64,000 bases of DNA from Naegleria gruberi (taxonomy: Eukaryota). The translations under genes were made by a program, and so were the position numbers. The notes under the pieces were generated by a model, which was not told the DNA's origin, did no database searches, and was given only the letters and a program-made list of their open reading frames with translations. This document shows positions 44,338 to 64,000 of this stretch, in pieces (position 1 is the first letter of the stretch; each line of letters opens with the position of its first letter). The stretch lies in assembly GCA_000004985.1 (NCBI GenBank), contig GG738928.1; one strand, 5' to 3'.

Positions 44338-45489
44338 TTAAAGAGTGAATCCAAGATTCTTTTGAATGTCAGCAACATTCCAGAACAAAACTTTGCCGTC
44401 CAAACCAGCGGTAACAAACTTGCTAACCTTACCACCTTCAACCTTGAAAGCTTCAATACAGTTAATAACATTGTGGTGACGAGTTTGTGGAGCATCGCTC
44501 TTTTCAGCATTTTGAGAACCAACAGTTGAAGTAGCTTGGAATTTTAAGAAAGCACTTCTGACACCAACACCTTGAGCCGCACCAGTCTTCTTCATTTCAT
44601 CACAAGATCCCTTCAAAACCCACTTGTTTCCTTCCAAAGCAAAAGCATATGGAGCAAAATCATAACCAGCAGCAACAAAGACCTTGTCGGAAAGGAACAA
44701 ACCACAATAGAATGGTAACTTTTCATGACGAACAACTTGAGATTCAATTGGTTGAGCATCAGCAACAGATTGATCTTGTGAAGCATAATCAACAAATTGA
44801 ACAGTAGAATCGTGTCCAATGAAAGCTAACCATTTACCATTTGGTGAGAATTGAACAGAGTGAACCCATCCCTTTGATGTATATTCAACAAAGACATCAC
44901 CAAACTTTAACTTGTTATCGGCACTTCTCTTACCGTCCACTTCCTTGAGGTATGTATTAAAAGTACGAGCTTTCATGTCACTACTACCAGTAGCTAATGT
45001 GTTAATAGTTGGATGCCAAGCAACAGATTTGATGGTTGATTTGTGTTTCTTAATCATCTTTGAAATGTACCACTTGTTTTCAGCTTCATAGAAACAAACA
45101 GCAATCATCTTGGAAGCACTACCAACAGCAAACTTTTCTTCGTTTGGAGACCACTTACAACAAGTAGCTGCTTTAGTAAGACGAAGTAAAACAAGTGTTG
45201 GATTCCATTTCTTTTCCTTTTCATTATATTCCCATACGTAGGCATTACGATCTTGAGCACAAGATAAAATCTTGTTAGATTTTGGTGCCCAATCAATACC
45301 AGTTACATAGTGGTCATGATCAGTCAATGTATGTTCTCTTTCCCACTTTTCGAAATCTTCACTACCATTAGTCTTATAGATGTGAATTTCACTGTTTCCT
45401 GGCGAGACAGCAACTCTTGATTTATCACCATTCCAAGCCATACAGCTGATAGCTTGAGCGAGGACTTTTTGGGTGTTGAGCAAGGACAT
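44338..45489 (-). CDS. ARPC1: Arp2/3 complex subunit 1 (p41-ARC, WD40)
   Basis: AISCMAWNGDKSRVAVSPGNSEIHIY...HDHYVTGIDWAPKSNKILSCAQDRNAYVWEY...WNPTLVLLRLTKAATCCKWSPNEEKFAVGSASKMIAVCFYEAENKWY...HKSTIKSVAWHPTINTLATGSSDMKARTFNTYLKEVD is colinear with ARPC1A/B as I remember them. Single exon, with expression-type codon bias. Confidence 0.92.
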   Translation of the reverse strand: MSLLNTQKVLAQAISCMAWNGDKSRVAVSPGNSEIHIYKTNGSEDFEKWEREHTLTDHDHYVTGIDWAPKSNKILSCAQDRNAYVWEYNEKEKKWNPTLVLLRLTKAATCCKWSPNEEKFAVGSASKMIAVCFYEAENKWYISKMIKKHKSTIKSVAWHPTINTLATGSSDMKARTFNTYLKEVDGKRSADNKLKFGDVFVEYTSKGWVHSVQFSPNGKWLAFIGHDSTVQFVDYASQDQSVADAQPIESQVVRHEKLPFYCGLFLSDKVFVAAGYDFAPYAFALEGNKWVLKGSCDEMKKTGAAQGVGVRSAFLKFQATSTVGSQNAEKSDAPQTRHHNVINCIEAFKVEGGKVSKFVTAGLDGKVLFWNVADIQKNLGFTL

Positions 45490-45730: not shown

Positions 45731-46195
45731 CAGGGTTCTCCACATTCATTTACATTGTGAATGTCAAACAAGAATAGATACGACAATCGACAAACATGAA
45801 AATAATAAATGTGAAACGACTAACCGTTACGAATAAAATTTAAAAAAAACATCATGATGATGTTTATTGTTTGCAACATAACAACACCCTTCCACATTAT
45901 TTTCACATAAACAACCATTAAACCTGATAATGTTTCAAACAATAACATTACAACCTCAAGCTTCCGAAGATATTCAGTATTGGCTGCCAAGACTTACGCT
46001 TGTTTCTATTTGATATCCAAAGCGCAGGTGACAATGTAAACCGATGTGAAAACACACCAATTTAATTAACACTACCGAAACTAATAAATTTAACCCAAAT
46101 TAAGAGTGACAATATGAATGAATCTTTTCTATGTCAATGATGAAAAAAGAAGTTTATTTTATTTCCATTTTCGAATTTCACGTGGAGAACCNCTG
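45731..46195. mobile_element. Non-autonomous hAT-like MITE (465 bp) with CAGGGTTCTCCAC terminal inverted repeats and 8-bp target-site duplication
   Basis: The left end is CAGGGTTCTCCAC at 45731. The right end is GTGGAGAACCNCTG, ending at 46195 (reverse complement CAGNGGTTCTCCAC). Both ends are flanked by GTTTTTTA (45723..45730 and 46196..46203). There is no long ORF inside. An 8-bp TSD and CAG-initiated TIRs are hAT-superfamily hallmarks. Confidence 0.7.
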
Positions 46196-46395
46196 GTTTT
46201 TTAAAAGATGGGGATACAATACAGATGGATCGGTGGCGGTTCTGATTATCAGATCTTAATATTTGTTGTTAACTATTTAGAAACTTTCATCAAATTCTGG
46301 TTAGAATTATAAAGTTCCATGTTCCGAAAACTATTTCTAAGGATTAATTCATCAAACAAGAGTTTCCGATACTTTTATCATTGATTCCAATTATT

Positions 46396-48711: not shown

Positions 48712-48787
48712 ATTTCCATTTCAATTTCCATCAAATTCTTTCACTAGCTTACAATAAATTTCCATTTCAAGTTCATCATAGATTTTA

Positions 48788-50435
48788 TTAGCAAGTAAAA
48801 TAGGAAAAGTTTGGAACTTCCCACAATCCAATAAAATTCTCTTCAAATACTTCTGCTTCCTCTTCATCATCGCTTGAATCATCATCATCACTCATTGCAT
48901 CATTTGAGTACATTCTCTTGTACTTTCGTTCTCCAGTGGAAAATGCAATATAAGGAAGATAGGGATGAAGATTAACAGAATTCACCACCAATTGATTCAT
49001 TGAGGAAGTAGCAGCGAGTTCTACAACTTCTGAACCACTTTTCACCATGTCAAATACTTTAATTTTACCGTCACATGTACCAGCACATGTGAATTGTGTG
49101 AAAATGTCAGTGTCAAAATTAATTTTCTGATTCGTGTTGAAATTCCTTGAAAAATCAAAAATTTTGATTGGTTCGAATAAATTTCTCAAATCCCAACAAA
49201 CAATTTTATCACTCTTTCTAGACGAAACTAGTAAATAATTTCCATCTGATGAAAATTTAACACAATTCACACCAGTTCCATATTCACATTCAATCACATG
49301 TTGAACTGAATCAAGATTTTGATCATAAACTCCAATTGTGTTATTGTAACATCCAGCAACATATATATTTTCCTCAATTGGATTAAAATCAAAACAGGAA
49401 ATAAAACCAGTTTGTCCAAATCTTTTTGTTTTCTTTTTTGATCCACTTCCACGAATTGACTGTTTTTCCATGGTGTGAATTTCTGAATATTCTGATGAAC
49501 TACCAACTTGTGCATCAAATACACAAATTCTCTGATCCAATCCACAATATATTCTAATTATTATTATTATCATTAAAATTCATTAAATTCATTGAATTTT
49601 CAAATAATTTTCCTTAATATTCATCATTCAAAATATTGAAATAAAACTTACTTGTTACCTTGTGATAATTTTCCATTAAAAGAAACTGATATAATATTAT
49701 CAGTTTCTCCCATTTTATCTCTAACCATGAATGAATTTAATAAATTTCCATTAAAAGCATCCCACATATGAACAGGTTGTTTTGAACTCACTGTCAGAAA
49801 ATTACAAAAACTCAAAGAAGAGGAAGACATTAATGGATTCCAACAAAAATCATTAATACATCCACCTTCTTTCACTGATAGACATGGACTCCATTCAATA
49901 TGTGAAAAATTGGCATTTTCACTGAAATTTCTTCCAAGAATTTCTTGTGGTCTTTCAATGATTAATTTCACACATTCGAGTTGACTTACAATTCAAATAA
50001 TCTTACAATATTATCATTACTATTACTTAATAGACATAATCCATCAGGTGACCATTTAATTCCTTTCGTATAAATTGGAATTTCATCTTTGGAAAATCCA
50101 AATTCTCCCTTTTTAGATTTTAACACAACATTTCCTTGATTTTCCAAAGATTTATCAAAATTTAATTTTAAATATGAAATTAATGATGAATTTGTTACTA
50201 CTTCTTCTTTGAGAATTACTTGTTCATTGTCATCATGATGCTGATGATTAATTATTGCTTGTTCAATTTGTTCTTCTTCTTCATGATGATCGGAAGTAAT
50301 ATTCATCATCATCATTATTGGTTGTTGTTGATTTAATTCTTCCGAAATTTTCGAATCTTTTGAATCTTTTTCTGTGGCTTGCATTTCTGCAGTGATGGTG
50401 TTGATAGTTGTGGTTGTGGTTGTATCTTCCATCAT
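48788..50435 (-). CDS. WRAP53: WD40 protein, WRAP53/TCAB1 (telomerase Cajal body protein 1) homolog; exons 49990..50435, 49652..49951 (alternative acceptor gives 49930), 48788..49553
   Basis: Colinear with WRAP53 as I remember it: GIKWSPDGLCLLSNSNDNIVRLFEL; KQPVHMWDAFNGNLLNSFMVRDKMGE; SVSFNGKLSQGNK/IYCGLDQRICVFD; QTGFISCFDFNP; DKIVCWDLRN; TNQKINFDTDIFTQFTCAGTCDGKIKVFD. Donors are GTAAGT at 49989 and 49651, and the junctions are in frame. ATG at 50433-50435 (MMEDTTTT; the track start is TTG). The C-terminus is acidic. Confidence 0.8.
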
Positions 50436-50684
50436 AAAGTCAAAATGCAATCTTTCAATATATTGTACGTTGAAGAGACAATTTTTTTTTAAATTCAAAC
50501 AATTTTTGACCTTTTTCAATTATTATAAAAAATCAATTGAATAAGTGACTTGCTAAATTTGGGTTAAAATTACAATTTATACACTTTAAAATTCATCACC
50601 ATCATTAAGGTACTAAAATAATATTCAAAAATTTAATTCTTCTTCAATCAATTCGAAATATCAAAAAAGCCTAAAACAAAAAAA

Positions 50685-53600
50685 ATGTTCAAAGGTACAC
50701 CTTCAACAAAGGAACAACAACAACAATTGGAAGAATCAGCTGCCAACAAACGTAAACGGTCATCCTTTGATGATGATTCCGATTCTGATTCATCATCTTC
50801 GGATGAAGAAACTTTTGCATCATCATCATTAGCCTTTAATAATCATAATAATTTAATGAATGATGAACAAGTTAATGAACAATCAAAAGCCTCCTCTTCA
50901 TCAATTATTGATAATGATCAGAAAGAAGATGAAGAGAATACAATGAAATTATCGGAATTTAAAAAGACACTTCTCTCTAAATTATCTAAACAATATACAA
51001 CAATTATTACACAGAATGAATTGGATATTCTTGAACAACAACTTCTTTCTAATCCATTTGCATTTTCATCATCAGAATGGGATGAATTAATTGGTCAATA
51101 TCAATATAGATCCTACATTGGACAATTTAATCATCAAATTGATAAAAGAAATACTGATTTACCATCACAATATTCAGTTTTATTAAATAATCAATATATT
51201 AATGTGAATGCATTGGAAAAAACAAGACATTTGAGATGGAAACGATCAGAATTTTTGAAATTAGGAGAAGAATCATGGTTAGATTGGATTAGAGAGGAGG
51301 AATTACATTTTATGGAAGGAAAATACTCAGATCATCAACAACGAGATGTTATTAAATGTATATATGAAAGAGCACTTTTATGGGAAAATTATTCTTGTAA
51401 GTTGTTATATAGTAATTAATTGTTTGATATTTATTCCATTGTTGATTATTCATGTTCTATTAAATAGACAAGACATTAAGAGCTAATTATTGTAAATTCA
51501 TGTTAAAATATTATGAAAGTAATAGTAGTATTATTGATGATAGTTTCAATCTGGTATTTAATTTAGTGGGATATGATGAGGAAATTTGTAATTTATATTT
51601 GAAATATTTAAAGCAATATGAAAAAAATCATTCCAAAATTAGAAATATCTATGCAAACTTGTTAAAACATCCAAATCATCAATCTGTTTTCACAATTTGG
51701 AAGGAATATAATCAATGGGAAAAGAATCCATCAGATGATGAAATGAAAGCCAGATATATTCACGCACTCAAACAAGTTGAAGAGAGAATTTCACTTCAAA
51801 AACAAACACAAGATGAATCTTCATATTTGGAACAAATTAATTTTGAAATGAAAAAGTACAATAATTGTAAAGAATTACTAAAATCAAAGGAATTTAATGA
51901 AATGTCTTTGGAGGATTTGAATGAAATTGGTTCTATTTTAAAGGAGAGAATTACATTACTTTTAAAGAAAGTAGCAAGTGAGAGTAATAATTCTGAAACT
52001 CTATGGAATATGCTATTGAACTTTTTAATAAGTGAAAAGGATGAATTTATTTCAACTAATAATGAAACATTGTCCTCTTCAAATGGAATATTCAATACTA
52101 TTAAGACTTTACATGAAATAATCAAGACAAATTTCAAGTACTTGGATAATAGTCATCTTTCAATTTACTTGCAAAATATTGAACAAGTGGATGATAATTT
52201 ATTGAACGCTCTTCATCTTCACATGACTTGTTGGGTTGCCTTTAAGAATCTTTCATGGAATTCTGAAATGCACAAGTACTTGATACTAAGTTTGGAGATT
52301 TTACATGAATTATCTTCCAGCAAGTTGGAATATTCTTCAAGTTATTTGAAACTTATCAATGATATCATGTTTAACAAATCAATGCATGCTCTCAATTCAT
52401 TTGCCAATGATTTGACATTTAATGATTACTATCAAGTATTCTCAACCTTCTGTTCATGTCTTACTAGACTCAATAGAAAGCTATACTTCAATATCAGTAC
52501 CAGATCGGAACCAAATGAAAATTTAAATTCTGCACTGGTAGAAGTATCACAAGCAGCTGATCAATCATTCCAAACATTCTCCGATTACTTGGATCAATAC
52601 TTTAAAATGGACACATCTCGTGTGCATTATTTTGAACTTCAATATGCTGAATTTTTATTGGAGAATGGACAATCTCAGAGAGCTTTAGAATTCTTTGAAA
52701 ATGTTCTAATGAATAATGAAATATTCAAGAAGGAACTTAGAGCATGGCAAGATTTTATTCAATTCATGGAGAAAATTAATTGGTTTGAAATTAATAATGA
52801 AAATCCACTCGAAACTAAACATGAGAAGATATCAGCTACCTACGATCTTGGAATTCGTTCAATGGATAATCCAAGCACTAAACAAATTCTTGCCAAATTG
52901 TGGTTGTACTATGAAAAGGTCAATTCCAATTCTGTACATTCCATTATTAAGGCTGAAAATATTTTGAAACAATTTAAAGATTCACAAAAGAAAAAGATGA
53001 AGGAAAAATCCAACACTAAGGAAAAGTCAAATATTAAGGAAAAATCCATCATCAAGGAAAAATCAAATGATGATAAGGGAAAGACTGAAAAGAAACCAAA
53101 GGAAGAAAAGAAAACAAAGGTAAAAGAAGATAGACCAAAGAAGAAGGTTAAATTCGCTACTACTGAAGAAGAATTAGTGGAACAAGTACCAAGTGAAAAT
53201 ACCAACATTATCAGCAGTGAAATCTCAAATGTTGAACAACAATTGGATCATGATGTTGAAATGAAAGAATTGGAAAATATCAAATCATCAACAGAAAAAA
53301 CAATGGAAACAAAATCAACAAGTAATGAAACAAATCAACCACAAACAGAACCACCAAAGAAAATCAAGAAGGAATCATCTGATGAAAAGCCTTGTTTAAA
53401 TGTTGTTGTTTGGAATTTACCATTCAGTATGAAAGAACAAGATATACGTGAGCTATTCCAACAACATTCAATTCAAGCAAAGAGAATAACTCTCATCACT
53501 CGTGAGAATGGATCCTCTAAGGGAATGGCATTTGTTGAATTGGAAAGTCATGAAATTATTCAACAAGCCATTGAAAAACTTAATAATTATGGAATTGATA

Positions 53601-53956
53601 AAGAAGGAAATTTACTTAAAGTAGCTCAAGCAGAAACAGCCAAAATGAAAAAATTATTGAAAAAGCAAAAAGATATTACTAATAAGAAGTTTGTACACAA
53701 TTCAACTCCTAAATTACATATTAAGGAATCAGATACAAGACAAAAGAAGCCAAACATGTTTAAACCAAGATCAGTTCCAAAGAGAAATGAAACAATTTCA
53801 TCATCATCATCATCAAGTGGTAATAATAATCAACAAACAGCAAGTGGCAGTGGCAGTGATTCAGTAGTTACTAATAACACTGAAAATCAATCACAACCAT
53901 CAGCTGCTGCAGTGGGTGGTTTGAGTAATGATGATTTTAAAAAGTTTTTAAGATAA
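50685..53956 (+). CDS. SART3: SART3/Prp24-like U4/U6 snRNP recycling factor (HAT repeats + RRM + C-terminal LSm-binding motif); exons 50685..51396 and 51468..53956, intron 51397..51467
   Basis: HAT/TPR-like repeats: WLDWIREEE...IYERALLWENYS/YKTLRANYCKFMLKYYE, LWNMLLNFL, AWQDFIQFME, LWLYYEKV. RRM: LNVVVWNLPFSMKEQDIRELF...SKGMAFVELESHEIIQQAIEKLN. The extreme C-terminus GLSNDDFKKFLR resembles the SART3/Prp24 LSm-interaction motif. The GTAAGT..AAATAG intron has a phase-1 junction in frame. Confidence 0.8.
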
Positions 53957-54179
53957 ACAAGTACTCATTCTTGATCAGTCTATTCTTTAAGCAAATGTTG
54001 TTGTACTTAAATACGAATATTTCCGTAGCCTCGGAAACATTACAAAAAAAAAATAGTCGCACATCATACCCACATTTACTGTACATCATGATGTACATCA
54101 TGAATACACACTTATAATAGTTTCAAGAAGAATAAATGTTGAATGACATTATGAAGGTGATGTTGATCATACTAAAAAA

Positions 54180-55502
54180 ATGGACAAACGACAAAGACAA
54201 GATTTTGAAAATCCTCAATTAATTAATTCGGAAGAGAAAGCAAAAAAGGTTGCAAAAGTCCAACAAGATGTATTTTCAGATGATATTTGTTTTGAAATAA
54301 TTTCAATGCTTGATGATTCGTGGTTTATTTTAAATACTTGTTCATTAATTTCAAAACAATTCTTTAAGGTGATCAAGGAACGTTCAAAACTTGCTATTCA
54401 ATTTCAAAAGAAATTTACAGAGAAACGAGTTAAATTATTCATGAAAAGTCAATTTATGAATAGTATTGTTAAAGTTAAATTTTCTAGTCGGTTGCTTCAA
54501 GCCATAGAAACCCCCAAATTGATAAGTGCAATGAAACAATTAACATCACTTAATATTTATGACAATGGAATTGGTGATGAAGAAATCAAATACATCAGTG
54601 AAATGAAACAATTAACATCACTTAATATTGGTTACAATAGAGTTGGGGATGAAGGAGCCAAATATTTAAGTGAAATGAAACAATTAACATCGCTTAATAT
54701 TGGTTACAATAGAGTTGGTATAGAAGGAGCCAAATATTTAAGTGAAATGGAACAATTAACATCACTTAATATTGGTTACAGTAGAATTGGTATAGAAGGA
54801 GTCAAATACATCAGTGAAATGAAACAATTAACGTCACTTAATATTTCTAAAAATGAAGTTAGCAATGAAGGAGCCAAATATTTAAGTGAAATGAAACAAT
54901 TGAGATTACTTAATATTTATCACAATGAAATTGGTGATGAAGGAGTCAAATATTTAAGTGAAATGAAACAATTAACATCACTTCATATTGGTTACAATAG
55001 AATTGGTCTAGAAGGAGTCAAATTGATAAGTGAAATGGAACAATTGACATCACTTGATATTTCTGAAAATGAAATTAGTGATGAAGGAGCAAAATATTTA
55101 AGTGAAATGGAACAATTAACATCACTTAATATTGATTACAGTAGAATTGGTCTAGAAGGGGTCAAATACATCAGTGAAATGAAGCAATTAACATCACTTA
55201 CTATTGCTTACAATAGAATTGGTATAAAAGGAGCTAAATTGATAAGTGAAATGAAACAATTGAGATTACTTGATATTTCTAACAATGAAATTAGTGATGA
55301 AGGAGCCAAATATCTAAGTGAAATGAAACAATTGATATCACTTTATATTTCTGAAATTGGAATTGGTATAAAAGGAGTCAAATACATCAGTGAAATGAAA
55401 CAATTGAGATTACTTGATATTACTCGCAATAGAATTGGAAAAGAAGGAGCTAAATTGTTAAGTGAAATGAAACAATTGACACCACTCTGTTTGGAATTGT
55501 AA
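54180..55502 (+). CDS. F-box-like + RNI-type leucine-rich repeat protein (about 14 tandem 24-aa LRRs)
   Basis: N-terminal F-box-like segment: DDICFEIISMLDDSWFILNTCSLISKQFFKVIKE. It is followed by ISEMKQLTSLNIGYNRVGDEGAKYL units repeated with an exact 72-bp DNA period (for example AGTGAAATGAAACAA at 54598 and 54670). Confidence 0.85.
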   Translation: MDKRQRQDFENPQLINSEEKAKKVAKVQQDVFSDDICFEIISMLDDSWFILNTCSLISKQFFKVIKERSKLAIQFQKKFTEKRVKLFMKSQFMNSIVKVKFSSRLLQAIETPKLISAMKQLTSLNIYDNGIGDEEIKYISEMKQLTSLNIGYNRVGDEGAKYLSEMKQLTSLNIGYNRVGIEGAKYLSEMEQLTSLNIGYSRIGIEGVKYISEMKQLTSLNISKNEVSNEGAKYLSEMKQLRLLNIYHNEIGDEGVKYLSEMKQLTSLHIGYNRIGLEGVKLISEMEQLTSLDISENEISDEGAKYLSEMEQLTSLNIDYSRIGLEGVKYISEMKQLTSLTIAYNRIGIKGAKLISEMKQLRLLDISNNEISDEGAKYLSEMKQLISLYISEIGIGIKGVKYISEMKQLRLLDITRNRIGKEGAKLLSEMKQLTPLCLEL

Positions 55503-55901
55503 AACAAATAAAACACAAATAAAAGCTTACTGATATTCTTCATCTAAAATTATGAGATAGCAACGATGCTTAGAAATCTTGAATGAACTAGAAAACTCCA
55601 AAGAAGAAACAACAAAATGAGTCTGGTAATACTTGTTTTTCTTTTCTATCGTTCTTTTGATTCAAGTTTGAGTTGAAATCTTCTATTGTTGTATGTGTTT
55701 GGATCAATTTTTGAAAGTGGCAATTCCTAAAAATATAAATAGATGAAGAATTTTGAATGGAATGAAATTGTCTCTTGGTCAATTAAAAAAAAAGAAACCT
55801 ACTGCAATAAATCCTATGATCGTCATGTACATTGATTTATTGAGCCCTCTTGTCTTTTGATAGTTATACAACATTGGCAAGAGGGCATTTGTTACAAAGT
55901 C

Positions 55902-55951
55902 NNNNNNNNNNNNNNNNNNNNNNNNNNNNNNNNNNNNNNNNNNNNNNNNNN
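55902..55951. other. Assembly gap (50 N)
   Basis: Run of 50 n, with a further single n at 55974. Confidence 0.99.
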
Positions 55952-56799
55952 CACCTAAATGGATTAGTAGTTTNTGATATGTTCAATAAAAATCAAACTT
56001 TCTACATTTTTCTTACAATATTAGACTTAATATATGGAATTTGTTAAAAGAAATAATGACTGTTTCAAATAATTGCATTCAATATTAAAATTACAATTGA
56101 AGAAATGTAAAATCACAATAAGACATTCACAATTCAAGCTCACCAACAAGTAACATTGTGAAAGTCAAAGAGAGTTGAGTTACTAATTTCCCTATTTATA
56201 AAGGTGGAAAACAAGGTTTTTAATTGATACTTAGTATCAATTTTGATATAATTTCTCACAAGTTGGAAAATTACAGTTCTATTCATCTATTTTTCTATTT
56301 ATGATACTAATATCCGGGAATGATGTATTTAAATTGTTGTACTGAAATTGGCACATAGGGTAGCTTACAATCGCTTGTAAAACATTCCACTCACTCGCAA
56401 GCAATTAAAACCAAATGAATCACTTCACAACTTTTTCAAAGAAATCAATTCAAATAAGCTCCATAATTTAAAAAACATCTTTCCTATGTGAAATTCTCCT
56501 ACTCCTAGCTCTCATAGGATGAGTTCCAATATTTGGTCAAGTGGTTGTTGTCCTTAGTGAGAAGAAGGTTATTACTAATTTAGTTTATTGGTTATTGAAA
56601 TTGTAATTTAACAATATTAAATATAAATATTATGATCTACTAAATCCACTACAAATACCAATTTTAGAATATAATTTCATTGCTCTAACCAATTATATCC
56701 ACAACCCTTACATATTGAAATAACAAATATAAACACATTTACACACATGTTAAAATAGTTCAATAATAATTTCATCATGAAAAACAATTATAGAACAAA

Positions 56800-57294
56800 T
56801 TATTTATTTTTTTTAAATAATTCTAAAATATTTTTAAAATAATAAAAAATTATTAAAATTAAATTTGGTAATAAAGATAATTTTACAAATATATTATTAT
56901 TATAAACAGTTAAAAATAATAAATTATAAACATATAAATAACTAATTAAAGTAAATAAACCAATAAATAAATTTAAAATAAATTTCTTATTAAAATAAAA
57001 AATATAAAATAATAAAATTAAAATTGAAATTATAAAATAAATAAAACTTTCAAGATGAAATTGTCTAACAAGTATTTTATCCAAACTTGGTAATAATTTT
57101 AAATTCATTGGTAATGGTTTTGTAAAATAAATTCCCAAAGTAAAAAATAAACTTGTAAAAAAGTGTAAAATCATGAATAAATATTCTTTCATTAATATTT
57201 TTGTATTTCCTATTAAAAGATATAAAAATAATGTTAAATATATTAAAATAAATGATGAAAATGTAAATATTGAAAGACTTGTTATGGAAAACAT
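56800..57294 (-). CDS. Small multi-pass membrane protein (164 aa, 4-5 hydrophobic helices), no family recognised
   Basis: ATG at 57292-57294. The frame stays open for 164 codons in sequence of roughly 10-15% GC, where TAA/TAG/TGA should occur about once per 10 codons by a rough base-composition estimate. The protein is F/L/I/Y-rich with K/N loops. Confidence 0.5.
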   Translation of the reverse strand: MFSITSLSIFTFSSFILIYLTLFLYLLIGNTKILMKEYLFMILHFFTSLFFTLGIYFTKPLPMNLKLLPSLDKILVRQFHLESFIYFIISILILLFYIFYFNKKFILNLFIGLFTLISYLYVYNLLFLTVYNNNIFVKLSLLPNLILIIFYYFKNILELFKKNK

Positions 57295-57389
57295 TTTAAA
57301 AGATTATGATAATTATATATTATTAATGATGATGATGGTAATGATGGTATGAATGATATGATAACGATGGTGATGATTGTATTTTAATA

Positions 57390-57575
57390 CTATAATAATT
57401 TAATCAGTGATGAAGTATGATGATTGTATAAATTATCTTTAGAGTCAAAGATGATATGATGTTCCGAATTTTTTTTAATATTATTTTCATCAACAATCAA
57501 ATTTTTCCATTTCATACAACAAACTTGAACCTTAATAATACTACAACAACAACTAGTGGCACAACAATCAAACAT
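57390..57575 (-). CDS. Small Cys-rich ORF (61 aa), speculative
   Basis: ATG at 57573-57575 gives MFDCCATSCCCSIIKVQVCCMKWKN.... It is short, has no recognisable family, and lies 95 nt upstream of the 56800..57294 ORF on the same strand. Confidence 0.25.
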   Translation of the reverse strand: MFDCCATSCCCSIIKVQVCCMKWKNLIVDENNIKKNSEHHIIFDSKDNLYNHHTSSLIKLL

Positions 57576-57707
57576 TCAATTTGTAATTCATTCATATTCT
57601 ATCGATTGATTGATTAATTAATTCATACTATTTTATTATCATTTTACAAATATATACTACTACTACTATATATATATTAACTTGTTTACCATATATTTCC
57701 ATTATAA

Positions 57708-59445
57708 TTAAAGATATTCTTGTAAAATAGATGGTTTAAAACGTATAACAATAACCGAAATATTATCAGTACTACCCTTATCATAGGCTAATTCACGTAA
57801 AGTAATAGAGGCTTGAACAGGATCATTTTCATATCTGACACTTGTTACAACTTCCTCCTCACTAACATAATCCCATAAACCATCACAAGCTACAACAATA
57901 AATTCATCTCTATCAAACATAAAATCCATAACCATTGTACTTGCATCTGATATAATATAGGGATGAAGTGATTTATCACCAATTGCTCTCGTAATTGCTA
58001 AACATGCATTAACACGATTACCATATATAGTACCACCTGCATCTTTAACTCTTCTACGTTCATCAATTTCACTTGGTCTATGATCAACTGTTAATCTAAT
58101 AGGTTCACCACTTCTACATAATACAATTCTAGAATCACCTACATTACCAATATAGGCTATTTTTTCATCTATATATGGTATATATATAATTGAGGCTGTA
58201 CTTCCATCTCTATCATTTCCTTTACATACATTTTCATTAATTTCTAAAAATGTTTCACGTATTAAAAGTGGAATTACTTCACGTTTTGAAAGTGAATGTA
58301 AACAAATTTCATCAATTGATTCTTCTGTTGTTTTTTGTTCTCTTTCTTTATATTTTAAATGTTCTCTCAATTTACATAATAATAAATTACTCTTTTCAAT
58401 AGCTAATTCAATCAATTCTGAATATCTCATTGTATATATTTCTTCTCTTTCTTTTTCATTTAATAATCCATAATAACTTTCTATATTTATATTATTTAAT
58501 ATTGAACTTAAATCATATGAATCATTATATCCATTCTTATGAGAATTATTAGAATTATACATATTATGAGAATGATTCATATTAGAATTATTCATATTAA
58601 CATCTAAATCTTGTAATAATTTCTTAATATCTAAAAATTGTTCATAAATATTTAATTTTTCCTTAAATAAAACATGTAAATGTTCAGAAACATATTTAGA
58701 AGTATTTGAACCAACATGTCCATCACTTGTTATCTAATTGAGCATAATCATGTTGTCTAAATGTTAATTCACATACAAGTGCATCTTCCATTGTTGATCT
58801 TCTTCCTTGTTTTTCAGCATAACCTGATAATAACCAATCATTTTCTAATAATTCAGATTGAATAGGTTCAACACGTTGTTGATTACCTTTGTTTTTTTGT
58901 GCACGTCTATCAGCCTTTCTTTGATTCCTTTGTGAAGCCATTCTTTCTATAGCTTCATAGGTTTGACTACTTGGTGATGATGATTGTAATGTTGTATTAT
59001 TACTACTAATCACTGTTATTGTTTGTGAATGTGTTGTTGTTGTTGGTGATGATGAAGAGGATGAAGAGGATGAAGAGGATGATGAAGTAGATGAAGATGA
59101 TGAGGCTACTGATGATAATGATAGATTTATATTTTTAGGCTTTGTTTTAGGTGAATCATCGGAAATTGTTGGTGAATCAATGAGTGGTGAATCACTATCC
59201 ATTAATGATGATGATGAAGAAGAAGATGAATTAGTATCAATAGTTGTAACTGATGGAGAATCATCAGTAATAATAACATTATTTGGTGATTGATCAAATA
59301 TTTCCTCATTATTATTCTTGTTATTAACTCCTTCCATTATATTAATAATGAGTGGTGATTTTGCATCGGCAGAATCTTCTATCAGTTGATTAAAATTTAA
59401 ATTAATATTATCATTGTTGGGTCCTTTCTTTTTGCTTTCATTCAT
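57708..59445 (-). CDS. PP2C-family (PPM) Ser/Thr phosphatase with long S-rich N-terminal region; exons 58777..59445 and 57708..58733, intron 58734..58776
   Basis: Motifs: GYAEKQGRRSTMEDAL, DGHVGSNTSKYVSEHL, STASIIYI, YIGNVGDSRIVLCRSGEPIRLTVDHRP, ERRRVKDAGGTI, RVNACLAITRAIGDKSLHPYIISD, DEFIVVACDGLWDYVSEEEV, GSTDNISVIVIRF. The two track ORFs are in different frames. A GTATGT..(43 nt)..AATTAG intron joins them in phase 0. Confidence 0.85.
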
Positions 59446-59564
59446 TTTTTTATTTTGAATTTAATTTTTATATTTGATTTATCTCGTTAACACAATTCGA
59501 ACAATTCTAAGTACGACGATGAGCAAATAAGAAAATCATTTTAATAAACAAAAATTGTAAAAAT

Positions 59565-61124
59565 TTACAAAGATTCATAGGCACTACCAGTAGTACTACT
59601 TGTTGGATCGACTGTAGATAATTGGAAGTACTTTCTTGCCAATTGATACCACAAAGCAATGAACATGACAAGATATGAAATCAAGTCAATTGAAAGAGAT
59701 AAACCTTCAATCCATTTAGCTCTATGTGAAACTGGAATAGCAAATGAAATTGAAACAATGAGTGGTAAACTAATGAACCATAAACTATATAATAAACCAA
59801 TAACCTTATAGAATACCTTCTTCAATTTGTTAGTTTCTTCTTGATGAGTCTTGAATAAAACAAAGATAAAGAAAGCCATAGCAGGAATTCTCATAACACT
59901 AATAATAATACCTGGAATAGTATCATAAATATAATCTTCAGTATTAACAACAAATATTAATTCAATTTGAGCCCAAGCATATAAAGCAATATAGAAAACA
60001 CCAAAGAAAATCCAAACACCAACAGTTTGTTTAAAGTAACGAATATATGAAGTAGTAATAGTCCAACCAGAAGCAAGTAAATATAACAAGACTAACATTA
60101 AAAAGTCACCTAATAATTTAAGACCAACTGCCAAATCATCAAAGAATGGAATACCAACACCATCAGCTCCATAAACAAACAAGTGAATCATTTCAACAAC
60201 TCTACCCAACCAATAAACAACTAAACTTGAATAAAAAACTCTAATAATTAAATGGAATGATTTGTGTCTAATCAATTGAACAATTGAAATAATATAAGCA
60301 AATACCATAATTGTATAAAATGGAACAAAAGCAATATGAACTTCAAGAATACCTTGTCTATCCTTAGAGAATTGCTTAGTAAAGAAACCACCTGGATTAG
60401 TCCATTTGAAATCCAATTCAATATATTCTGGACCAGAATCTGTAACTTCTCTTTCACAAGCATCCAAAGCCATATACCATGTGTGAATACTAGCTGATTC
60501 ATCAATCAAAATACTAAATTCAGGATAAGTATCAAGTGGGAATGTTTGTTTAGCAAACTTTCTCAGATGTGTGCAATTAACCTTTCCATTGTTTGAATTA
60601 ATATAATTTTGCAAGGCTGGCCAATAACCAGATTCATCATCATATAACGAAACATAGAGATTTTTAAGAGCAGTTGGATCTTGTTTCTTAATATTATTTC
60701 TATTCAATTGTTATTATTATTATTGTTATGGTGATGATAGTAAAAAGAATTATGGTCGGTGGTAAGTGTTTGATCAAAAGGAATTAGATTTTTTGATGAA
60801 CCGAGATTTATAATCGGATGATGATGATGACGATAATAATTAACATATAAATTCGAATACAGCAGAGCGGAAGGTTAAATGATGAAATAATATTAATAGT
60901 AAACATATTTGTGAGTTTAAATATACTTACAATTGCCAAGTAATATAACCTGGTTCCTTCATACCCATGTTATCAAAAACAAATGAATCCAACCAAATCC
61001 ATTGATGATTCAATGATTGTTTTTCAAAAGTAAAAGTGGTGAGTTTACCTTCAACAACACTATAAATTTGCAACAAAACCACAAGCGCTAAAAACACGCC
61101 AATAATCTTTGAGGCTGGTTTCAT
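59565..61124 (-). CDS. GPR180/TMEM145-like (GpcrRhopsn4-type) 7TM protein; exons 60931..61124 and 59565..60699, intron 60700..60930
   Basis: Signal peptide MKPASKIIGVFLALVVLLQIYSVVEG. GTAAGT donor (G at 60930) and AATAG acceptor, with the phase-2 junction in frame (...GYITWQL/NNIKKQDP...). Luminal-domain motifs: HTWYMALDACE and FSKDRQGILEVHIAF. Seven hydrophobic helices follow. I cannot exclude the related Lung-7TM (GPR107/108) family. Confidence 0.7.
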
Positions 61125-61902
61125 TTTTTTTCTAATTCACAAAGGAGGTCACACAGCAACAACTCCTCACAACAGCGCTGAAACTCACAAGTAAGCGAGA
61201 AATGGAAAGCTTATTTGTTGTTATCATTTCAAACATCAACAATATGACCTTCCGTTTACAAGATCATTTAGGAACAATATCAATGGTACATGCAATATCT
61301 TTCCTAAATGATGATAATAACAAAAGGTGTGAAAATTAAAGAATCTTTTTATCAACCATACGATAGTCGTTGATGGAATATTACAAAAATTTTTGATAAG
61401 GGGCGATATCTTGCATGTTTTGATTCCATTAAGGATACATGGAATGTTCCACATTGTTATTAAAAACAATAATTAACCAAACTTCTCAAAATATTTATAT
61501 TAACCTATATTCCTTGTAGTGTTAACAGATTTTCATTGTAGAAATCAAATAGAAATTGAATGGGGCAAAGATTCTCTCTGTTATAATAATAACTATCAAC
61601 ATCAATAGAGTACAAAACTTCATGAAATCAAATCTCCTCATGTATTCATGTAAAAATTATATATTCTCATCTCTCATAATAGTAATCATAAAGAAATCAT
61701 CTCCTCAATTCAATCATAGTCTACACTCCTCTTAAAGATAAACTTTCCCGCCAAAATCTTGTGTAGGAGTTTGATTAAAAAAAAATCTAAACATCACCTG
61801 CTCTGTTACACGTGACAGTTTTTTAATTACTACCATATCCATGTATGTGTTTTTTAAAGATATCCTATTATTTATACAATCAATATGAATAGATAACACA
61901 AA

Positions 61903-63135
61903 ATGGCTAAAAAGAAGAATAATAATAAGAATAAGAATTCAGCCTCTTCGGCAACAACACCAGTTTCACCAGTGAGTGAAGTCAGTGAGGATAATAGTAT
62001 TGAAGAAACTGTTACATCATCAACAACAATGGAAGAGGAACAAACAGTATCAACAACAACTCAAGAATCTACAATTGATGAAGCCTCCACAATAACTTCT
62101 ACCACTGAACAACAAGAAGAAGAAGAAGCCTCTGATAAAATTCAACAACCTGAAGAAGTAAATTCATCATCTACAACAACAGCCATTGTTACTGAAGGAA
62201 TACCAACAACTAACACTGTTGAAACATCTGATTCTATTACTACTACTAATACTAATACTACTACTATTGATAATAACATTCCAACAAGTAGTACAACAAC
62301 AACAACAATTGAAGAAGAAGAAGAAAAAACAAATCAAAAAAGTGAAGAAGAAATTATAACAGAAGAAATTGAAAAATTAAAAGAAGATTTAACTGATCGT
62401 GTTAAAGTAGTAAGAGAAGAATTAGAATTACAATATGAAATTGAAATTAAAAAATTACAAATTGATCATCAAGAATCTTTAAAAAAACAATTAGATTTAT
62501 ATGAAAATAAGATTAATTCACTTGTTGAAACTCATAAATATGAAATTGAACAATTAAATGCTCAATTAAAACAAAAAGATGAAGAAAATTTAAATGAATT
62601 GGAAAATATTAAATTATTAGAAATTAAATTACAAGATCAATTAAATGAAAATAATTCTAAAGATTTAATAATTAATAATTTAAATAATAATATTGAAAAT
62701 TTAAATAATAATATTAATAATTTAAAAAATGAAATTGAAATTAAAAAATCTGAATTAAAAGAAAAAAATGAAAATTCAAATGAATTAAATGAAACTATTA
62801 AAAAACATTTAGAAAAAATTCAAAATTTAGAAAGAGAAGAATTAAATTCATTACAAAAAATTAATCATTTAAATCAACAATTAAAAACAACAAGTGAAAA
62901 GAATTCTGAATATGAAAATAGAATTTTACAATTAGAAGAAGAATTAAAATCACAAAAAGAAAATGAAACAATTATTTTACATAAATATTATCATCATGCT
63001 TTATTAGCTGTAAAATTAACTTTATCAAATATTAATTTTTCAGTTCCAGATTTGTTAGATGATTGTATTAAAGAACAAGTTAAAGAAGAAGATTTAGATT
63101 CTTGGATTACAAAGAAATTAGAATTACAAAATTAA
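61903..63135 (+). CDS. Coiled-coil protein with S/T/E-rich N-terminal region, no family recognised
   Basis: 410-codon ORF from ATG 61903. Residues ~150-370 show heptad-like K/E/L/N/I repeats (EIEKLKEDLTDRVKVVREELELQYEIEIKKLQIDHQESLKKQLDLYENKINSLVETHKYEIEQLNAQLKQKDEE...). Confidence 0.7.
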   Translation: MAKKKNNNKNKNSASSATTPVSPVSEVSEDNSIEETVTSSTTMEEEQTVSTTTQESTIDEASTITSTTEQQEEEEASDKIQQPEEVNSSSTTTAIVTEGIPTTNTVETSDSITTTNTNTTTIDNNIPTSSTTTTTIEEEEEKTNQKSEEEIITEEIEKLKEDLTDRVKVVREELELQYEIEIKKLQIDHQESLKKQLDLYENKINSLVETHKYEIEQLNAQLKQKDEENLNELENIKLLEIKLQDQLNENNSKDLIINNLNNNIENLNNNINNLKNEIEIKKSELKEKNENSNELNETIKKHLEKIQNLEREELNSLQKINHLNQQLKTTSEKNSEYENRILQLEEELKSQKENETIILHKYYHHALLAVKLTLSNINFSVPDLLDDCIKEQVKEEDLDSWITKKLELQN

Positions 63136-63269
63136 ATATTTTAATATTTATAATTATAAATAAAAAAAAACAATTTAAATTATTAAATCATAATGTGTTT
63201 TAAATTGTTGTTGATGAAGAAGAATATTTCAAAAGTTTAAATTATTATTAAATAAATTATTAATCAATT

Positions 63270-64000
63270 TTATCGTTCATTTATTTGATCATCAGATTCA
63301 TAACCAGATAATTGATTTAATTGATTATTATTATTTGGAAGTATAATTTCATTTAAAATTGTATTTAATTGATATTTTAATTCATCTTTAAATTGTTGTT
63401 GATTTATAATATTTGAATTATTATTTAAATTATTATTTAAATTATTTAATTTAAATTCAATTAAATGATTTAAAATATTTTTTAAAAAAGCATGATCATT
63501 TCCATGTAAAGAAATAAATAAATTATTAAATAATTCTAATAAATTATTATTTAAATCAATATTACTATATATATTAATTAAAGTACGTAACCATAAATCT
63601 AATTCATCTTGAGATGAACAACTCCATTCACTAATTTCACCATTTATAGTTTTAATTTCAAATCTAAATTTTAAATCATTATTTTCATTTTGTAATCTTT
63701 TTATACTTGTTATACTATTTATATCTATTATATTATATTTGGAATTTGAATCATTTCTATAATATAATTTACTTCTTTTAATTTTAACTTTGGTTTTTTG
63801 ATATCCAATTCCATTTTTACGTTTTTTAAATAAATTCCTTTTAAATCATATTTAATTATATTTTCATTTTTTTTAAAATTATTAAAATTATTATTATTTA
63901 AATTATTACTATTTATATTATTATTATTTATATTAATAATTGTATTTCTTGTTTGTTGTAAATTATTATCACTAATAGTTTGTCTATGAGTATTAAATTC
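63270..64000 (-). CDS. PH-domain protein, 5'-partial (runs off window end); apparent 1-nt frameshift in a homopolymer at 63832..63837; absent from the ORF track
   Basis: Read by hand on the minus strand; the stop TAA is at 63270-63272. The frame from ~63838 down reads LFKKRKNGIGYQKTKVKIKRSKLYYRNDSNSKYNIIDINSITSIKRLQNENNDLKFRFEIKTINGEISEWSCSSQDELDLWLRTLINIY (PH-like), followed by an N/Q/L-rich tail. The upstream frame from the window end reads ...NFKKNENIIKYDLKGIYLKN and is offset by one base. One extra A in the A6 run would give KGIYLKKRKNGIGY. Confidence 0.65.

What the first reader, a model, noticed from the sequence alone, without database searches (positions are those of the whole stretch)
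55902..64000. Abrupt drop in GC and change in codon usage downstream of the second gap
From about 56.6 kb to the window end the sequence is much more AT-rich. My hand counts of single 60-nt lines gave 23/60 G+C at 44341, 16/60 at 57721 and 4/60 at 62641. The genes here (PP2C, GPR180-like, coiled-coil, PH) use TTA for Leu and AAA for Lys almost exclusively. Upstream genes (TyrRS, ARPC1, the orphan at 34102) mix in TTG/CTT and AAG. The change begins within ~0.7 kb of a 50-N scaffold gap. It may be natural compositional heterogeneity, or the gap may join contigs that do not belong together.
Basis: seen in the sequence. Interest (0 to 1): 0.5.

Follow-up and report, generated by a model that had tools for sequence, protein, structure and literature searches.

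The report
AT-rich gene block in Naegleria gruberi
The AT-rich stretch after the scaffold gap is genuine Naegleria gruberi DNA whose genes have drifted to almost only A/T-ending codons, not a foreign contig, so it is a modest curiosity of genome composition and annotation, although whether the scaffold join itself is correct remains untested.

Summary
The window is Naegleria gruberi scaffold DNA, shown by exact matches to EFC36627.1 and EFC36596.1.

**Observation.** Four-fold-site GC is 0.077 in six ORFs right of the gap against 0.22 and 0.195 to the left (p=2e-6). PP2C has 0 of 92 C-ending two-fold pyrimidine codons.

**No step at the gap.**
- Bulk GC already falls at about 47 kb.
- GC is 0.29 to the left of the gap and 0.27 to the right.
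- Most of the extra drop comes from two coding AT islands, 56.75-57.3 kb and 62.4-64 kb.
- The GPR180-like gene between them is nearly normal.

**Origin.** The right contig is native. PP2C's best relatives are N. fowleri (75%), Willaertia and Acrasis. PH, GPR180 and PP2C keep the same order and strand on an N. fowleri contig. The dinucleotide signature matches the left side. The N. fowleri locus is compositionally flat (GC3 0.30-0.375), so the AT shift arose in the N. gruberi lineage.

**Mis-join.** Cross-organism mis-join is refuted. A within-genome mis-join is untested, because N. fowleri collinearity ends between PP2C and the gap.

**Annotation.** Two ORFs here are missing from public protein sets. 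PP2C and the PH gene each carry a frameshift.

**Verdict.** Low-to-moderate interest.

The parts
46193..55901 (.). Intermediate zone left of the gap. Bulk GC is 28.8%, GC3 is 0.17-0.26, and G/C-ending two-fold codons are reduced (0.173 against 0.281 in 1-46 kb).
55902..55951 (.). 50-N scaffold gap. It lies in a 1.3-kb ORF-free spacer between convergent genes. GC is 0.29 on the left flank and 0.27 on the right. The contig ends do not overlap.
55952..56750 (.). ORF-free spacer at the start of the right contig. GC is ordinary at 0.27. It holds a single ambiguous base at 55974.
56800..57294 (-). AT island 1 (56,751-57,300, GC 6-15%). It is a 164-codon open frame for a very hydrophobic F/I/L/Y/N/K-rich protein, with GC1 0.13, GC2 0.17 and GC3 0.06. 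No family was found. No match was found in the 31 kb of N. fowleri DNA fetched around the PP2C ortholog.
   Evidence: (167 open codons against a simulated maximum of 109)
57708..59445 (-). PP2C phosphatase gene, ortholog of N. fowleri FDP41_006261. GC3 is 0.07-0.12, and the second ORF has 0 of 92 C-ending two-fold pyrimidine codons. The reading frame breaks at about 58,725-58,733. There 1 nt replaces the 24 nt that encode 'YESFVGIY' before the DGH motif in N. fowleri.
59565..61124 (-). GPR180/TMEM145-like membrane protein gene: main exon 59565-60707 and signal-peptide exon 60927-61124. It is 70% identical to its N. fowleri neighbour-ortholog. Four-fold sites are AT-rich (GC 0.068, T 0.67), but two-fold codons are ordinary (C 0.26, G 0.22).
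61125..61902 (.). Divergent intergenic region between the GPR180-like and coiled-coil genes. GC is 0.29, so it is not AT-enriched.
61903..63135 (+). 410-codon gene with an S/T/E-rich N-terminus followed by an N/K/I/E/L-rich coiled coil.
- GC3 falls from 0.24 in the first 50 codons to 0.00-0.04.
- The exact sequence is absent from the protein collection, and no near-identical representative was found.
- Its C-terminal 90-130 residues have relatives in Willaertia magna and Heterolobosea sp. BB2.
- It is absent between the PH and GPR180 orthologs in N. fowleri.
62400..64000 (.). AT island 2 (GC 13-17%; the 137-bp spacer 63136-63272 is 9.5%). It is almost all coding and runs off the window end.
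63273..64000 (-). 3' part of a PH-domain gene.
- GC3 is 0.03, with 0 of 68 C-ending two-fold codons.
- It is the ortholog of the 853-residue N. fowleri gene just upstream of GPR180 (36% identity, E=5e-22).
- It has a 1-nt frameshift near 63,850.
- No hit was found among 5.8 billion proteins, so it is missing from the public N. gruberi protein set.

Best explanation
**What it is.** The sequence right of the second gap is native Naegleria gruberi chromosome. It is a small block, PH gene - (coiled-coil gene) - GPR180-like - PP2C - (small membrane ORF). The order and strand of PH, GPR180 and PP2C are inherited from the common ancestor with N. fowleri.

**What changed.** In the N. gruberi lineage the gene bodies of this block were driven to almost only A/T-ending codons. 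In the least constrained proteins, amino-acid content also moved towards AT-rich codons (Asn, Lys, Ile, Phe, Tyr).
- very low GC3 in the genes;
- two coding AT islands, 56.75-57.3 kb and 62.4-64 kb onwards.

**Likely cause (inferred).** A locally stronger AT-biased substitution pressure acted on genes with little selection for C/G-ending codons. That pressure could be mutation bias or a lack of GC-biased gene conversion in a recombination-poor neighbourhood. The GPR180-like gene kept its C-ending two-fold codons, as if still under codon selection.

**The gap (inferred).** The gap is probably a consequence of the AT-rich DNA, not the cause of the pattern. Extremely AT-rich DNA clones and assembles poorly in Sanger projects, so contigs tend to break next to it.

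**Shown:** native origin, collinearity with N. fowleri, the direction of change, and the lack of any step at the gap.
**Inferred:** the cause of the AT pressure and the reason for the gap.
For: **Identity of the window**
- ARPC1 and the TyrRS-like ORF are exact matches to N. gruberi EFC36627.1 and EFC36596.1, on a 160,583-bp contig.
- The annotated N. gruberi PP2C model on that same contig is 100% identical to the ORF right of the gap.

**Native origin of the right contig**
- PP2C's best non-self hits are N. fowleri 75%, Willaertia 57% and Acrasis 55%.
- The coiled-coil C-terminus has relatives in Willaertia magna and Heterolobosea sp. BB2.
- PH, GPR180 and PP2C lie in the same order and on the same strand on N. 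fowleri contig VFQX01000051.1.
- Dinucleotide-signature distances from the right contig to left-side 8-kb segments are 55-112. Left-side segments differ from one another by 40-118. Distances to Willaertia are 135-226.

**Lineage-specific AT shift**
- The N. fowleri locus has 500-bp GC of 0.25-0.42.
- GC3 of the N. fowleri orthologs is 0.375 (PH), 0.332 (GPR180) and 0.302 (PP2C). In N. gruberi the values are 0.03, 0.20 and 0.07-0.12.
- At conserved residues I counted sites where N. gruberi has an A/T ending and N. fowleri a G/C ending, against the reverse. The counts are 46:5 and 24:3 for PP2C, 17:1 for PH and 48:19 for GPR180.
- Replacements run towards FYMINK residues 49:14 in the PP2C catalytic part.

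**No step at the gap**
- GC is 0.292 and 0.268 in the two flanks.
- The change points lie at 47,050 and 62,421.
- Codon bias is already reduced at 46-56 kb (p=0.004).

**The islands are coding**
- Open frames of 167 and 244 codons were found, against simulated maxima of 109 and 121.
Against: - Non-coding DNA inside the block is not uniformly AT-enriched. GC is 0.29 for 61125-61902, 0.27 for 55975-56750 and 0.19-0.22 for the short spacers, while GC3 is 0.03-0.12. A purely regional mutation bias should hit spacers at least as hard.
- The pattern is a mosaic at the 1-2 kb scale, with GPR180 in the middle only partly affected.
- Several left-side genes also have low four-fold-site GC. TyrRS is 0.096 and ARPC1 is 0.127. 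Part of the contrast is therefore ordinary gene-to-gene variation.
- There is no genome-wide GC3 distribution for N. gruberi, no expression data and no recombination data.
- The FYMINK asymmetry has no control from left-side orthologs.
- Cloning bias as the reason for the gap rests on general knowledge, not on data from this assembly.
- The join itself is unverified.
Confidence: 0.7

Rival explanations
1. Within-genome scaffold mis-join. Both sides are N. gruberi, but the 50-N gap links two loci that are not neighbours. On this reading the compositional contrast reflects two different chromosomal neighbourhoods.
For: - Collinearity with N. fowleri ends between the PP2C 3' end (57.7 kb) and the gap.
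- The 19 kb downstream of PP2C in N. fowleri holds an M20 peptidase, BRO1/ALIX, an 876-residue protein, an acetyltransferase, a 773-residue protein and TAF2. None of these matches any ORF in the 56 kb left of the gap.
- The contig ends do not overlap.
- AT islands and C-free two-fold codons occur only on the right contig.
- Both gaps in the window are exactly 50 N, which looks like a placeholder length.
Against: - GC and the share of G/C-ending two-fold codons start to fall about 9 kb before the gap.
- The two flanks of the gap have the same composition.
- The collinear block is itself interrupted by a lineage-specific gene insertion, which shows that this neighbourhood has been rearranged during evolution. 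A published synteny comparison left N. gruberi out as too distant from N. fowleri and N. lovaniensis (PMC9928731). A break in collinearity here may therefore mean little.
- Scaffolders place a gap only where mate pairs link two contigs (general knowledge, not checked for this assembly).
Confidence: 0.2
2. Gene-specific relaxation of codon selection. The mutational equilibrium of N. gruberi is extremely AT-rich everywhere. Most genes are held at GC3 0.2-0.35 by selection for C/G-ending codons. These few genes are so weakly expressed that they have slid to equilibrium. On this reading there is no regional effect.
For: - The effect is confined to gene bodies, while several spacers stay at 0.19-0.29 GC.
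- The GPR180-like gene in the middle keeps C-ending two-fold codons and has the T-rich four-fold pattern also seen in ARPC1.
- Translational selection on codon usage has been reported for Naegleria clarki and Willaertia (PMC11702301).
Against: - Five of six adjacent ORFs are outliers, while none of the 24 long left-side ORFs tabulated is. That argues for clustering.
- The N. fowleri orthologs have ordinary GC3, so the bias is not a conserved property of these genes.
- Introns and spacers elsewhere in the window are 0.16-0.31 GC, not 0.05.
Confidence: 0.25
3. Decaying genes. PP2C and the PH gene are pseudogenes, since each has a frameshift, and the AT-richness is neutral drift after loss of function.
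For: - PP2C lacks the 8 codons before the DGH motif and changes frame there.
- The PH gene needs a 1-nt correction near 63,850.
- The public PP2C model is a truncated 240-residue protein.
Against: - Apart from one lesion each, the frames stay open for 167-341 codons. In the two AT islands (13-16% GC) the open frames of 167 and 244 codons far exceed the simulated maxima of 109 and 121.
- PP2C is still 64-71% identical to its N. fowleri ortholog, similar to the intact GPR180 at 70%.
- Drift from GC3 0.30 to 0.07 would take far longer than an ORF survives without selection.
- The lesions may be consensus errors in a poorly covered contig. An ambiguous base lies 22 nt from the contig end.
Confidence: 0.08
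4. Foreign DNA. The right contig would be a contaminant or chimera from an AT-rich organism such as Dictyostelium or Willaertia. Alternatively it would be a horizontally acquired or giant-virus-derived island.
For: The codon usage and the poly-Asn tracts look Dictyostelium-like to the eye. Willaertia genes have a similar GC3 of 0.03-0.14.
Against: - PP2C is closest to N. fowleri (75%) and is only 57% identical to Willaertia. No dictyostelid appears among the named hits in the 120 listed.
- The three-gene order is shared with N. fowleri.
- The dinucleotide signature matches the rest of the window and not Willaertia.
- Neither the membrane ORF nor the PH ORF has a relative in viral contigs.
- The contig has no internal N after position 55974, so the Naegleria-type genes and the AT islands are physically continuous.
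Confidence: 0.02

Closest known systems
Intragenomic GC3 heterogeneity linked to recombination or GC-biased gene conversion and to codon selection, as described in yeasts, vertebrates and other eukaryotes
   Same: Neighbouring genes share an atypical synonymous-site composition. The change is directional and lineage-specific (46:5, 24:3 and 17:1 A/T-for-G/C endings at conserved residues). Amino-acid content follows it.
   Different: The scale here is only a few kb and the pattern is mosaic. Several spacers are not affected. No recombination or expression data exist to tie it to that process.
AT-rich isochore-like blocks made by repeat-induced point mutation in fungi (for example Leptosphaeria maculans)
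   Same: Sharp AT-rich patches occur inside a genome of otherwise even composition.
   Different: The patches here are gene-dense with long intact ORFs. They hold no repeats other than the LRR array outside the block. The RIP substrate index stays at 1.19-1.79, where RIP gives values below 1.03.
Short, extremely AT-rich regional centromeres of some protists (Plasmodium, diatoms)
   Same: There are kb-scale islands of 83-94% A+T in a gene-dense genome. One island runs off the window end next to a break in collinearity.
   Different: Both islands are protein-coding. Centromeric identity cannot be tested by sequence alone.
Contaminant or chimeric scaffolds in draft eukaryote assemblies
   Same: There is a composition and codon-usage contrast near a scaffold gap.
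   Different: Homology, gene order and oligonucleotide signature all place the contig in Naegleria.

Membership tests
Cross-organism chimera or contaminant contig | Genes on the suspect side have their closest relatives in a different lineage from the host | tested here: not met
   PP2C is closest to N. fowleri at 75%, then Willaertia and Acrasis. The coiled-coil C-terminus has relatives in Willaertia and Heterolobosea sp. BB2. GPR180 and PH have N. fowleri orthologs.
Cross-organism chimera or contaminant contig | Oligonucleotide signature differs from the rest of the scaffold | tested here: not met
   Signature distances to left-side segments are 55-112, within the 40-118 range seen among left-side segments. 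CpG, GpC and CpA ratios are alike.
Within-genome scaffold mis-join | No read pairs or long reads span the join | not testable with these tools
   No reads were available. No independent contig carries the flanking ORFs. A metagenome scan for the left flank found nothing.
Within-genome scaffold mis-join | Collinearity with a related genome breaks at the join | tested here: inconclusive
   Collinearity with N. fowleri ends between 57.7 kb and the gap. The block already holds a lineage-specific insertion.
Within-genome scaffold mis-join | Composition changes at the join itself | tested here: not met
   GC is 0.292 to the left and 0.268 to the right of the gap. The change points lie at 47,050 and 62,421.
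Horizontally acquired or viral island | Genes lack orthologs at the same position in relatives, or have relatives in the donor lineage or in viruses | tested here: not met
   PH, GPR180 and PP2C are collinear in N. fowleri. No viral-contig relatives were found for the membrane ORF or the PH ORF. The coiled-coil gene is an insertion relative to N. fowleri, but its relatives are heterolobosean. The 164-codon membrane ORF has no data either way.
RIP-type AT-rich block | CpA/TpG depletion (substrate index below 1.03) in repeat-rich, gene-poor DNA | tested here: not met
   The index is 1.19-1.79 in all sub-regions. ORFs are dense and intact. No dispersed repeats were found.
AT-rich regional centromere | kb-scale island of extreme A+T | tested here: met
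   GC is 6-15% over 0.5 kb and 13-17% over at least 1.6 kb.
AT-rich regional centromere | The island is non-coding and binds the centromeric histone | tested here: not met
   Both islands are coding. Open frames are far longer than chance allows. There is a PH domain and an N. fowleri ortholog. Histone binding is not testable here.
Recombination- or gBGC-linked GC3 heterogeneity | Synonymous-site GC covaries with GC of adjacent non-coding DNA | tested here: inconclusive
   The spacer 63136-63272 is 9.5% GC. Other spacers are 0.19-0.29, against GC3 of 0.03-0.12.
Recombination- or gBGC-linked GC3 heterogeneity | GC3 correlates with local recombination rate | not testable with these tools
   No genetic map or population data were available.
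Expression-linked codon usage variation | The bias is a conserved property of the gene across species and tracks expression | tested here: not met
   The N. fowleri orthologs have ordinary GC3 of 0.30-0.375. Expression was not testable.

The most novel reading that the evidence does not exclude
The block may mark the edge of a specialised chromosomal domain in N. gruberi, for instance a recombination-cold, pericentromeric or chromosome-end neighbourhood. The domain would have been created or entered by a lineage-specific rearrangement: the collinearity break next to PP2C and the coiled-coil gene insertion. Inside it, substitution is so AT-biased that conserved genes have lost nearly all G/C-ending codons, and gene finders trained on typical genes miss them. 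If such domains recur across the genome, they could reveal chromosome architecture in an organism whose centromeres are, to my knowledge, uncharacterised. They could also explain part of the many apparent gene losses inferred for N. gruberi (2,255 orthogroups, PMC12482156).
Probability: 0.15. Interest if true: 0.55.

Novelty: new member of a known kind. Interest (0 to 1): 0.25.

Why it matters
**Practical value.**
- The finding removes a contamination worry from a reference scaffold.
- It also flags a concrete annotation problem. Inside 8 kb, two real ORFs (coiled-coil and PH-domain) are absent from public protein sets, the PP2C model is truncated, and two genes carry frame breaks that need resequencing.
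- Gene finders trained on typical N. gruberi codon usage may miss AT-extreme genes as a rule. If so, gene-content comparisons across Naegleria would be biased.

**Biological value.** A conserved three-gene block is compositionally ordinary in N. fowleri and nearly free of G/C-ending codons in N. gruberi. That makes it a clean local case of lineage-specific compositional drift. It would become interesting if such blocks prove to be clustered landmarks of chromosome structure.

Tried and rejected
- **Dictyostelid contaminant.** This was my first impression from the sequence. I rejected it on the N. gruberi exact matches and on PP2C's heterolobosean relatives.
- **Synteny with Willaertia magna (L001).** Only PP2C is shared. 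The whole Willaertia locus is AT-rich (21% GC, GC3 0.03-0.14), so it cannot separate gene-specific from regional effects.
- **Concatenated four-protein query.** I used it to fetch N. fowleri orthologs of genes on both sides of the gap in one search.
- **N. gruberi DNA beyond the window, and independent contigs across the gap.**
  - The N. gruberi proteins and the window ORFs are not on record.
  - The first N. fowleri representative was not on record either.
  - A metagenome scan for the left flank found nothing.
- **A gene spanning the gap.** There is no ORF in any frame in 55952-56750, so gene continuity gives no test.
- **Overlap of the contig ends.** None above shuffled background.
- **Non-coding RNA or tRNA in the normal-GC spacers.** Only a sub-threshold snoRNA-like hit inside PP2C, and one tRNA-Phe far upstream.
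- **Repeats or transposons that might explain the islands.** None apart from the LRR array.
- **Giant-virus origin.** No relatives in viral contigs.
- **RIP-like mutation.** The indices do not fit.
- **Literature.** I found no description of compositional heterogeneity or AT islands in N. gruberi. The 2010 genome paper is not in the library.

Full report
**What the window is.** Two ORFs left of the gap are exact matches to annotated Naegleria gruberi proteins on a 160,583-bp contig. They are ARPC1 at 44338-45489 (EFC36627.1) and the TyrRS-like ORF at 42837-44150 (EFC36596.1). The annotated N. gruberi PP2C model on that same contig is 100% identical to the ORF right of the gap. The window is therefore part of one N. 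gruberi scaffold. Published genome-wide GC for Naegleria species is 33-37% (PMC12482156; PMC9928731 lists 35% for N. gruberi).

**Checking the observation.**
- The three 60-nt hand counts are exact. N runs lie at 5033-5082 (50), 46192 (1), 55902-55951 (50) and 55974 (1).
- Bulk GC is 33.5% (1-46191), 28.8% (46193-55901) and 24.5% (55975-64000).
- A maximum-likelihood change-point scan puts the main break of the whole window at about 47,050. Within 46.2-64 kb the break is at 62,421 (28.0% to 14.6%). A break near 56,571 is marginal.
- The 250-bp profile shows GC of 0.27-0.31 on both sides of the gap as far as 56,750.
  - Then comes an island of 8-15% at 56,751-57,250.
  - GC returns to about 0.29 for 57.75-62.25 kb.
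  - A second island of 13-17% runs from 62.4 kb to the window end.
- No 250-bp window in the 55.9 kb left of the gap is below 0.204. To the right, 32 of 156 are below 0.17.

The right contig is therefore truly different. The change lies inside contiguous sequence, not at the join, and a weaker decline starts 9 kb before the gap.

**Codon usage.**

| Measure | 1-46 kb | 46-56 kb | 56-64 kb |
|---|---|---|---|
| ORFs in the set | 31 | 7 | 6 |
| Mean GC3 | 0.280 | 0.208 | 0.091 |
| Mean four-fold-site GC | 0.222 | 0.195 | 0.077 |

- Mann-Whitney for left against right on four-fold-site GC gives p=2e-6.
- The sharpest discriminator is the share of C-ending codons among two-fold pyrimidine-ending codons. 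It is 0.11-0.40 in every left-side ORF. It is 0.00-0.08 in five of the six right-side ORFs: PP2C 0/92, PH 0/68, coiled coil 0.04.
- ATC is absent from those five ORFs.
- The GPR180-like gene between them has ordinary two-fold usage (C 0.26, G 0.22). Its four-fold sites are very T-rich, as in ARPC1.
- Some left-side genes also have low four-fold-site GC: TyrRS 0.096 and ARPC1 0.127. Part of the contrast is ordinary gene-to-gene variation.
- In the coiled-coil gene GC3 is about zero from codon 100 onwards. The apparent break at 62,421 comes from GC2, that is, from a switch from S/T/E-rich to N/K/I/E/L-rich protein.
- Genes at 46-56 kb already have fewer G/C-ending two-fold codons than genes at 1-46 kb (0.173 against 0.281, p=0.004).

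**Are the AT islands coding?** Yes. The open frames in the two islands are 167 and 244 codons long. The maxima in 1000 first-order Markov simulations of the same DNA are 109 and 121. Pfam confirms PP2C, GPR180/TMEM145 and a borderline PH domain. The 800 bp just right of the gap has no ORF in any frame.

**Where the right contig comes from.**
- The PP2C ORF's best non-self relatives are N. fowleri (75%), Willaertia magna (57%) and Acrasis kona (55%). No dictyostelid appears among the named hits in the 120 listed.
- The coiled-coil gene has only eight weak relatives among 1.8 billion representatives, all through its C-terminal 90-130 residues. The named ones are Willaertia magna and Heterolobosea sp. 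BB2.
- The N. fowleri PP2C ortholog (FDP41_006261) lies on contig VFQX01000051.1.
- A tblastn of all window ORFs against that locus shows PH gene, GPR180-like gene and PP2C in the same order and on the same strand. Identities are 36%, 70% and 64-71%.
- The coiled-coil gene is absent from the 340-bp PH-GPR180 spacer in N. fowleri.
- Dinucleotide-signature distances from the right contig to left-side 8-kb segments (55-112) fall within the range among left-side segments (40-118). They are far below the distances to Willaertia (135-226).

A contaminant, a cross-organism chimera and a horizontally acquired island are therefore excluded for these genes. Viral-contig scans for the membrane ORF and the PH ORF were negative.

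**The AT shift is specific to the N. gruberi lineage.**
- The N. fowleri locus is compositionally flat, with 500-bp GC of 0.25-0.42.
- GC3 of its orthologs is ordinary: PH 0.375, GPR180 0.332, PP2C 0.302.
- At residues conserved between the two species, I counted sites where N. gruberi has an A/T-ending codon and N. fowleri a G/C-ending one, against the reverse. The counts are 46:5 and 24:3 in PP2C, 17:1 in the PH gene and 48:19 in GPR180.
- Amino-acid replacements run towards FYMINK residues 49:14 in the PP2C catalytic part and 35:17 in GPR180. I had no left-side ortholog pairs to use as a control.
- Willaertia could not help here. Its whole locus is 21% GC, with GC3 of 0.03-0.14.

**Likely mechanism.** The direction of change, its effect on protein composition and its absence from N. 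fowleri all point to a local, lineage-specific AT-biased substitution pressure. It acted on genes with little codon selection, while GPR180 still retains C-ending two-fold codons. This is an inference.

Several spacers count against a simple regional bias. GC is 0.29 for 61125-61902, 0.27 for 55975-56750 and 0.19-0.22 for two short spacers. All of these are much more GC-rich than the neighbouring synonymous sites, although the spacer 63136-63272 is 9.5%. A gene-specific relaxation of codon selection is therefore a serious rival. RIP-like mutation is excluded, since the substrate index is 1.19-1.79, and no repeats are involved.

**The gap and the join.**
- The gap sits in a 1.3-kb ORF-free spacer between convergent genes. 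No gene crosses it, so gene continuity gives no test.
- The contig ends do not overlap.
- In N. fowleri the 19 kb beyond the PP2C 3' end has no counterpart anywhere in the 56 kb left of the gap. That stretch holds an M20 peptidase, BRO1/ALIX, an 876-residue protein, an acetyltransferase, a 773-residue protein and TAF2.
- Collinearity therefore ends within 1.8 kb of the gap. This fits either a rearrangement or a mis-join. The block already contains one lineage-specific insertion, and a published synteny study left N. gruberi out as too distant (PMC9928731).
- Three points favour the join:
  - the flanks have matching composition;
  - the decline begins before the gap;
  - scaffolders generally need mate-pair links to place a gap (general knowledge).
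- I could not reach N. gruberi reads or independent contigs.
- My estimate is about 0.2 for a within-genome mis-join.
- The simplest reason for a contig break 0.8 kb from a 6-15% GC island is poor clonability and coverage of such DNA in a Sanger project. This is an inference from general knowledge. It fits the ambiguous base 22 nt from the contig end.

**Annotation and sequence quality.**
- The PH ORF has no hit at all among 5.8 billion proteins.
- The coiled-coil ORF is not in the collection.
- The public PP2C model is a truncated 240-residue protein.
- PP2C changes frame at about 58,725-58,733. There 1 nt stands in place of the 24 nt that encode 'YESFVGIY' before the DGH motif in N. fowleri.
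- The PH gene needs a 1-nt correction near 63,850 to read 'IIKYDLKGNLFKKRKNG', matching the N. fowleri sequence 'IILEGTLYKKRKKA'.
- These lesions may be consensus errors or real. The long open frames argue against old pseudogenes.

**Verdict.** The contamination reading is refuted. Natural heterogeneity is the best-supported reading. The correctness of the join remains open. Interest is low to moderate. It would rise if AT-extreme, under-annotated gene clusters turn out to be recurrent landmarks of N. gruberi chromosomes.

Noticed in passing
window 58,725-58,733 (minus strand): The PP2C reading frame breaks here. Compared with the single-exon N. fowleri ortholog, 1 nt replaces the 24 nt that encode 'YESFVGIY', the strand just before the metal-binding DGH motif. 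This is either a consensus error or deletion artefact, or a real disabling lesion.
   Followed up: partly
window ~63,845-63,860 (minus strand): The PH-domain gene has a 1-nt frameshift. The upstream part ('...NIIKYDLKG') is in another frame from the 191-codon ORF, which has no start codon of its own.
   Followed up: partly
window 61903-63135 (+) and 63273-64000 (-): Two statistically supported ORFs (coiled-coil and PH-domain) are absent from the public protein collections, including the N. gruberi set. The PP2C model (P0006) is truncated to 240 residues. Gene finders seem to fail on this AT-extreme codon usage.
   Followed up: partly
window 61903-63135 versus L002 7694-8033: The coiled-coil gene sits between the PH and GPR180-like genes in N. 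gruberi, on the opposite strand. No such gene is called in the 340-bp spacer at the same place in N. fowleri, and its ORF gave no tblastn match anywhere in the fetched N. fowleri locus. This is a lineage-specific gain or loss inside a conserved block.
   Followed up: partly
window 54,443-55,534 (+): The LRR gene just left of the gap holds 12-13 tandem 72-nt (24-residue) repeats at 70-97% identity, each reading 'SEMKQLTSLNI...'.
   Followed up: no
window 37,057-42,279 (+): This is the highest-GC stretch of the window (0.40-0.42). It holds a 717-residue secreted S/T/G/N-rich mucin-like ORF with GC2 of 0.65. A second long open frame at 40120-42279 has the same GC2 (its protein was not examined). 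Amino-acid content alone thus moves bulk GC by 8-10 points in this genome.
   Followed up: no
window 46,192 and ~47,050: A single ambiguous base at 46192 lies close to the strongest bulk-GC change point of the whole window (33.5% to 26.6%). That point falls in the 5' part of a GC-poor RGS-domain membrane protein gene (46381-48711).
   Followed up: no
window 15,036-15,108 (-): A single tRNA-Phe (GAA) gene, the only tRNA in the window.
   Followed up: no
L001 (Willaertia magna JBEGDK010000032.1, 28188-49660): The Willaertia PP2C locus is 21% GC overall, with 1-kb stretches down to 8-13% and GC3 of 0.03-0.14 in most ORFs. The sister genus of Naegleria thus has genome-wide the composition that N. 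gruberi shows only in this block.
   Followed up: partly
window 5,033-5,082: The first gap is also exactly 50 N and lies inside a long minus-strand open frame (4973-7852). This suggests that 50 N is a placeholder length in this assembly.
   Followed up: no
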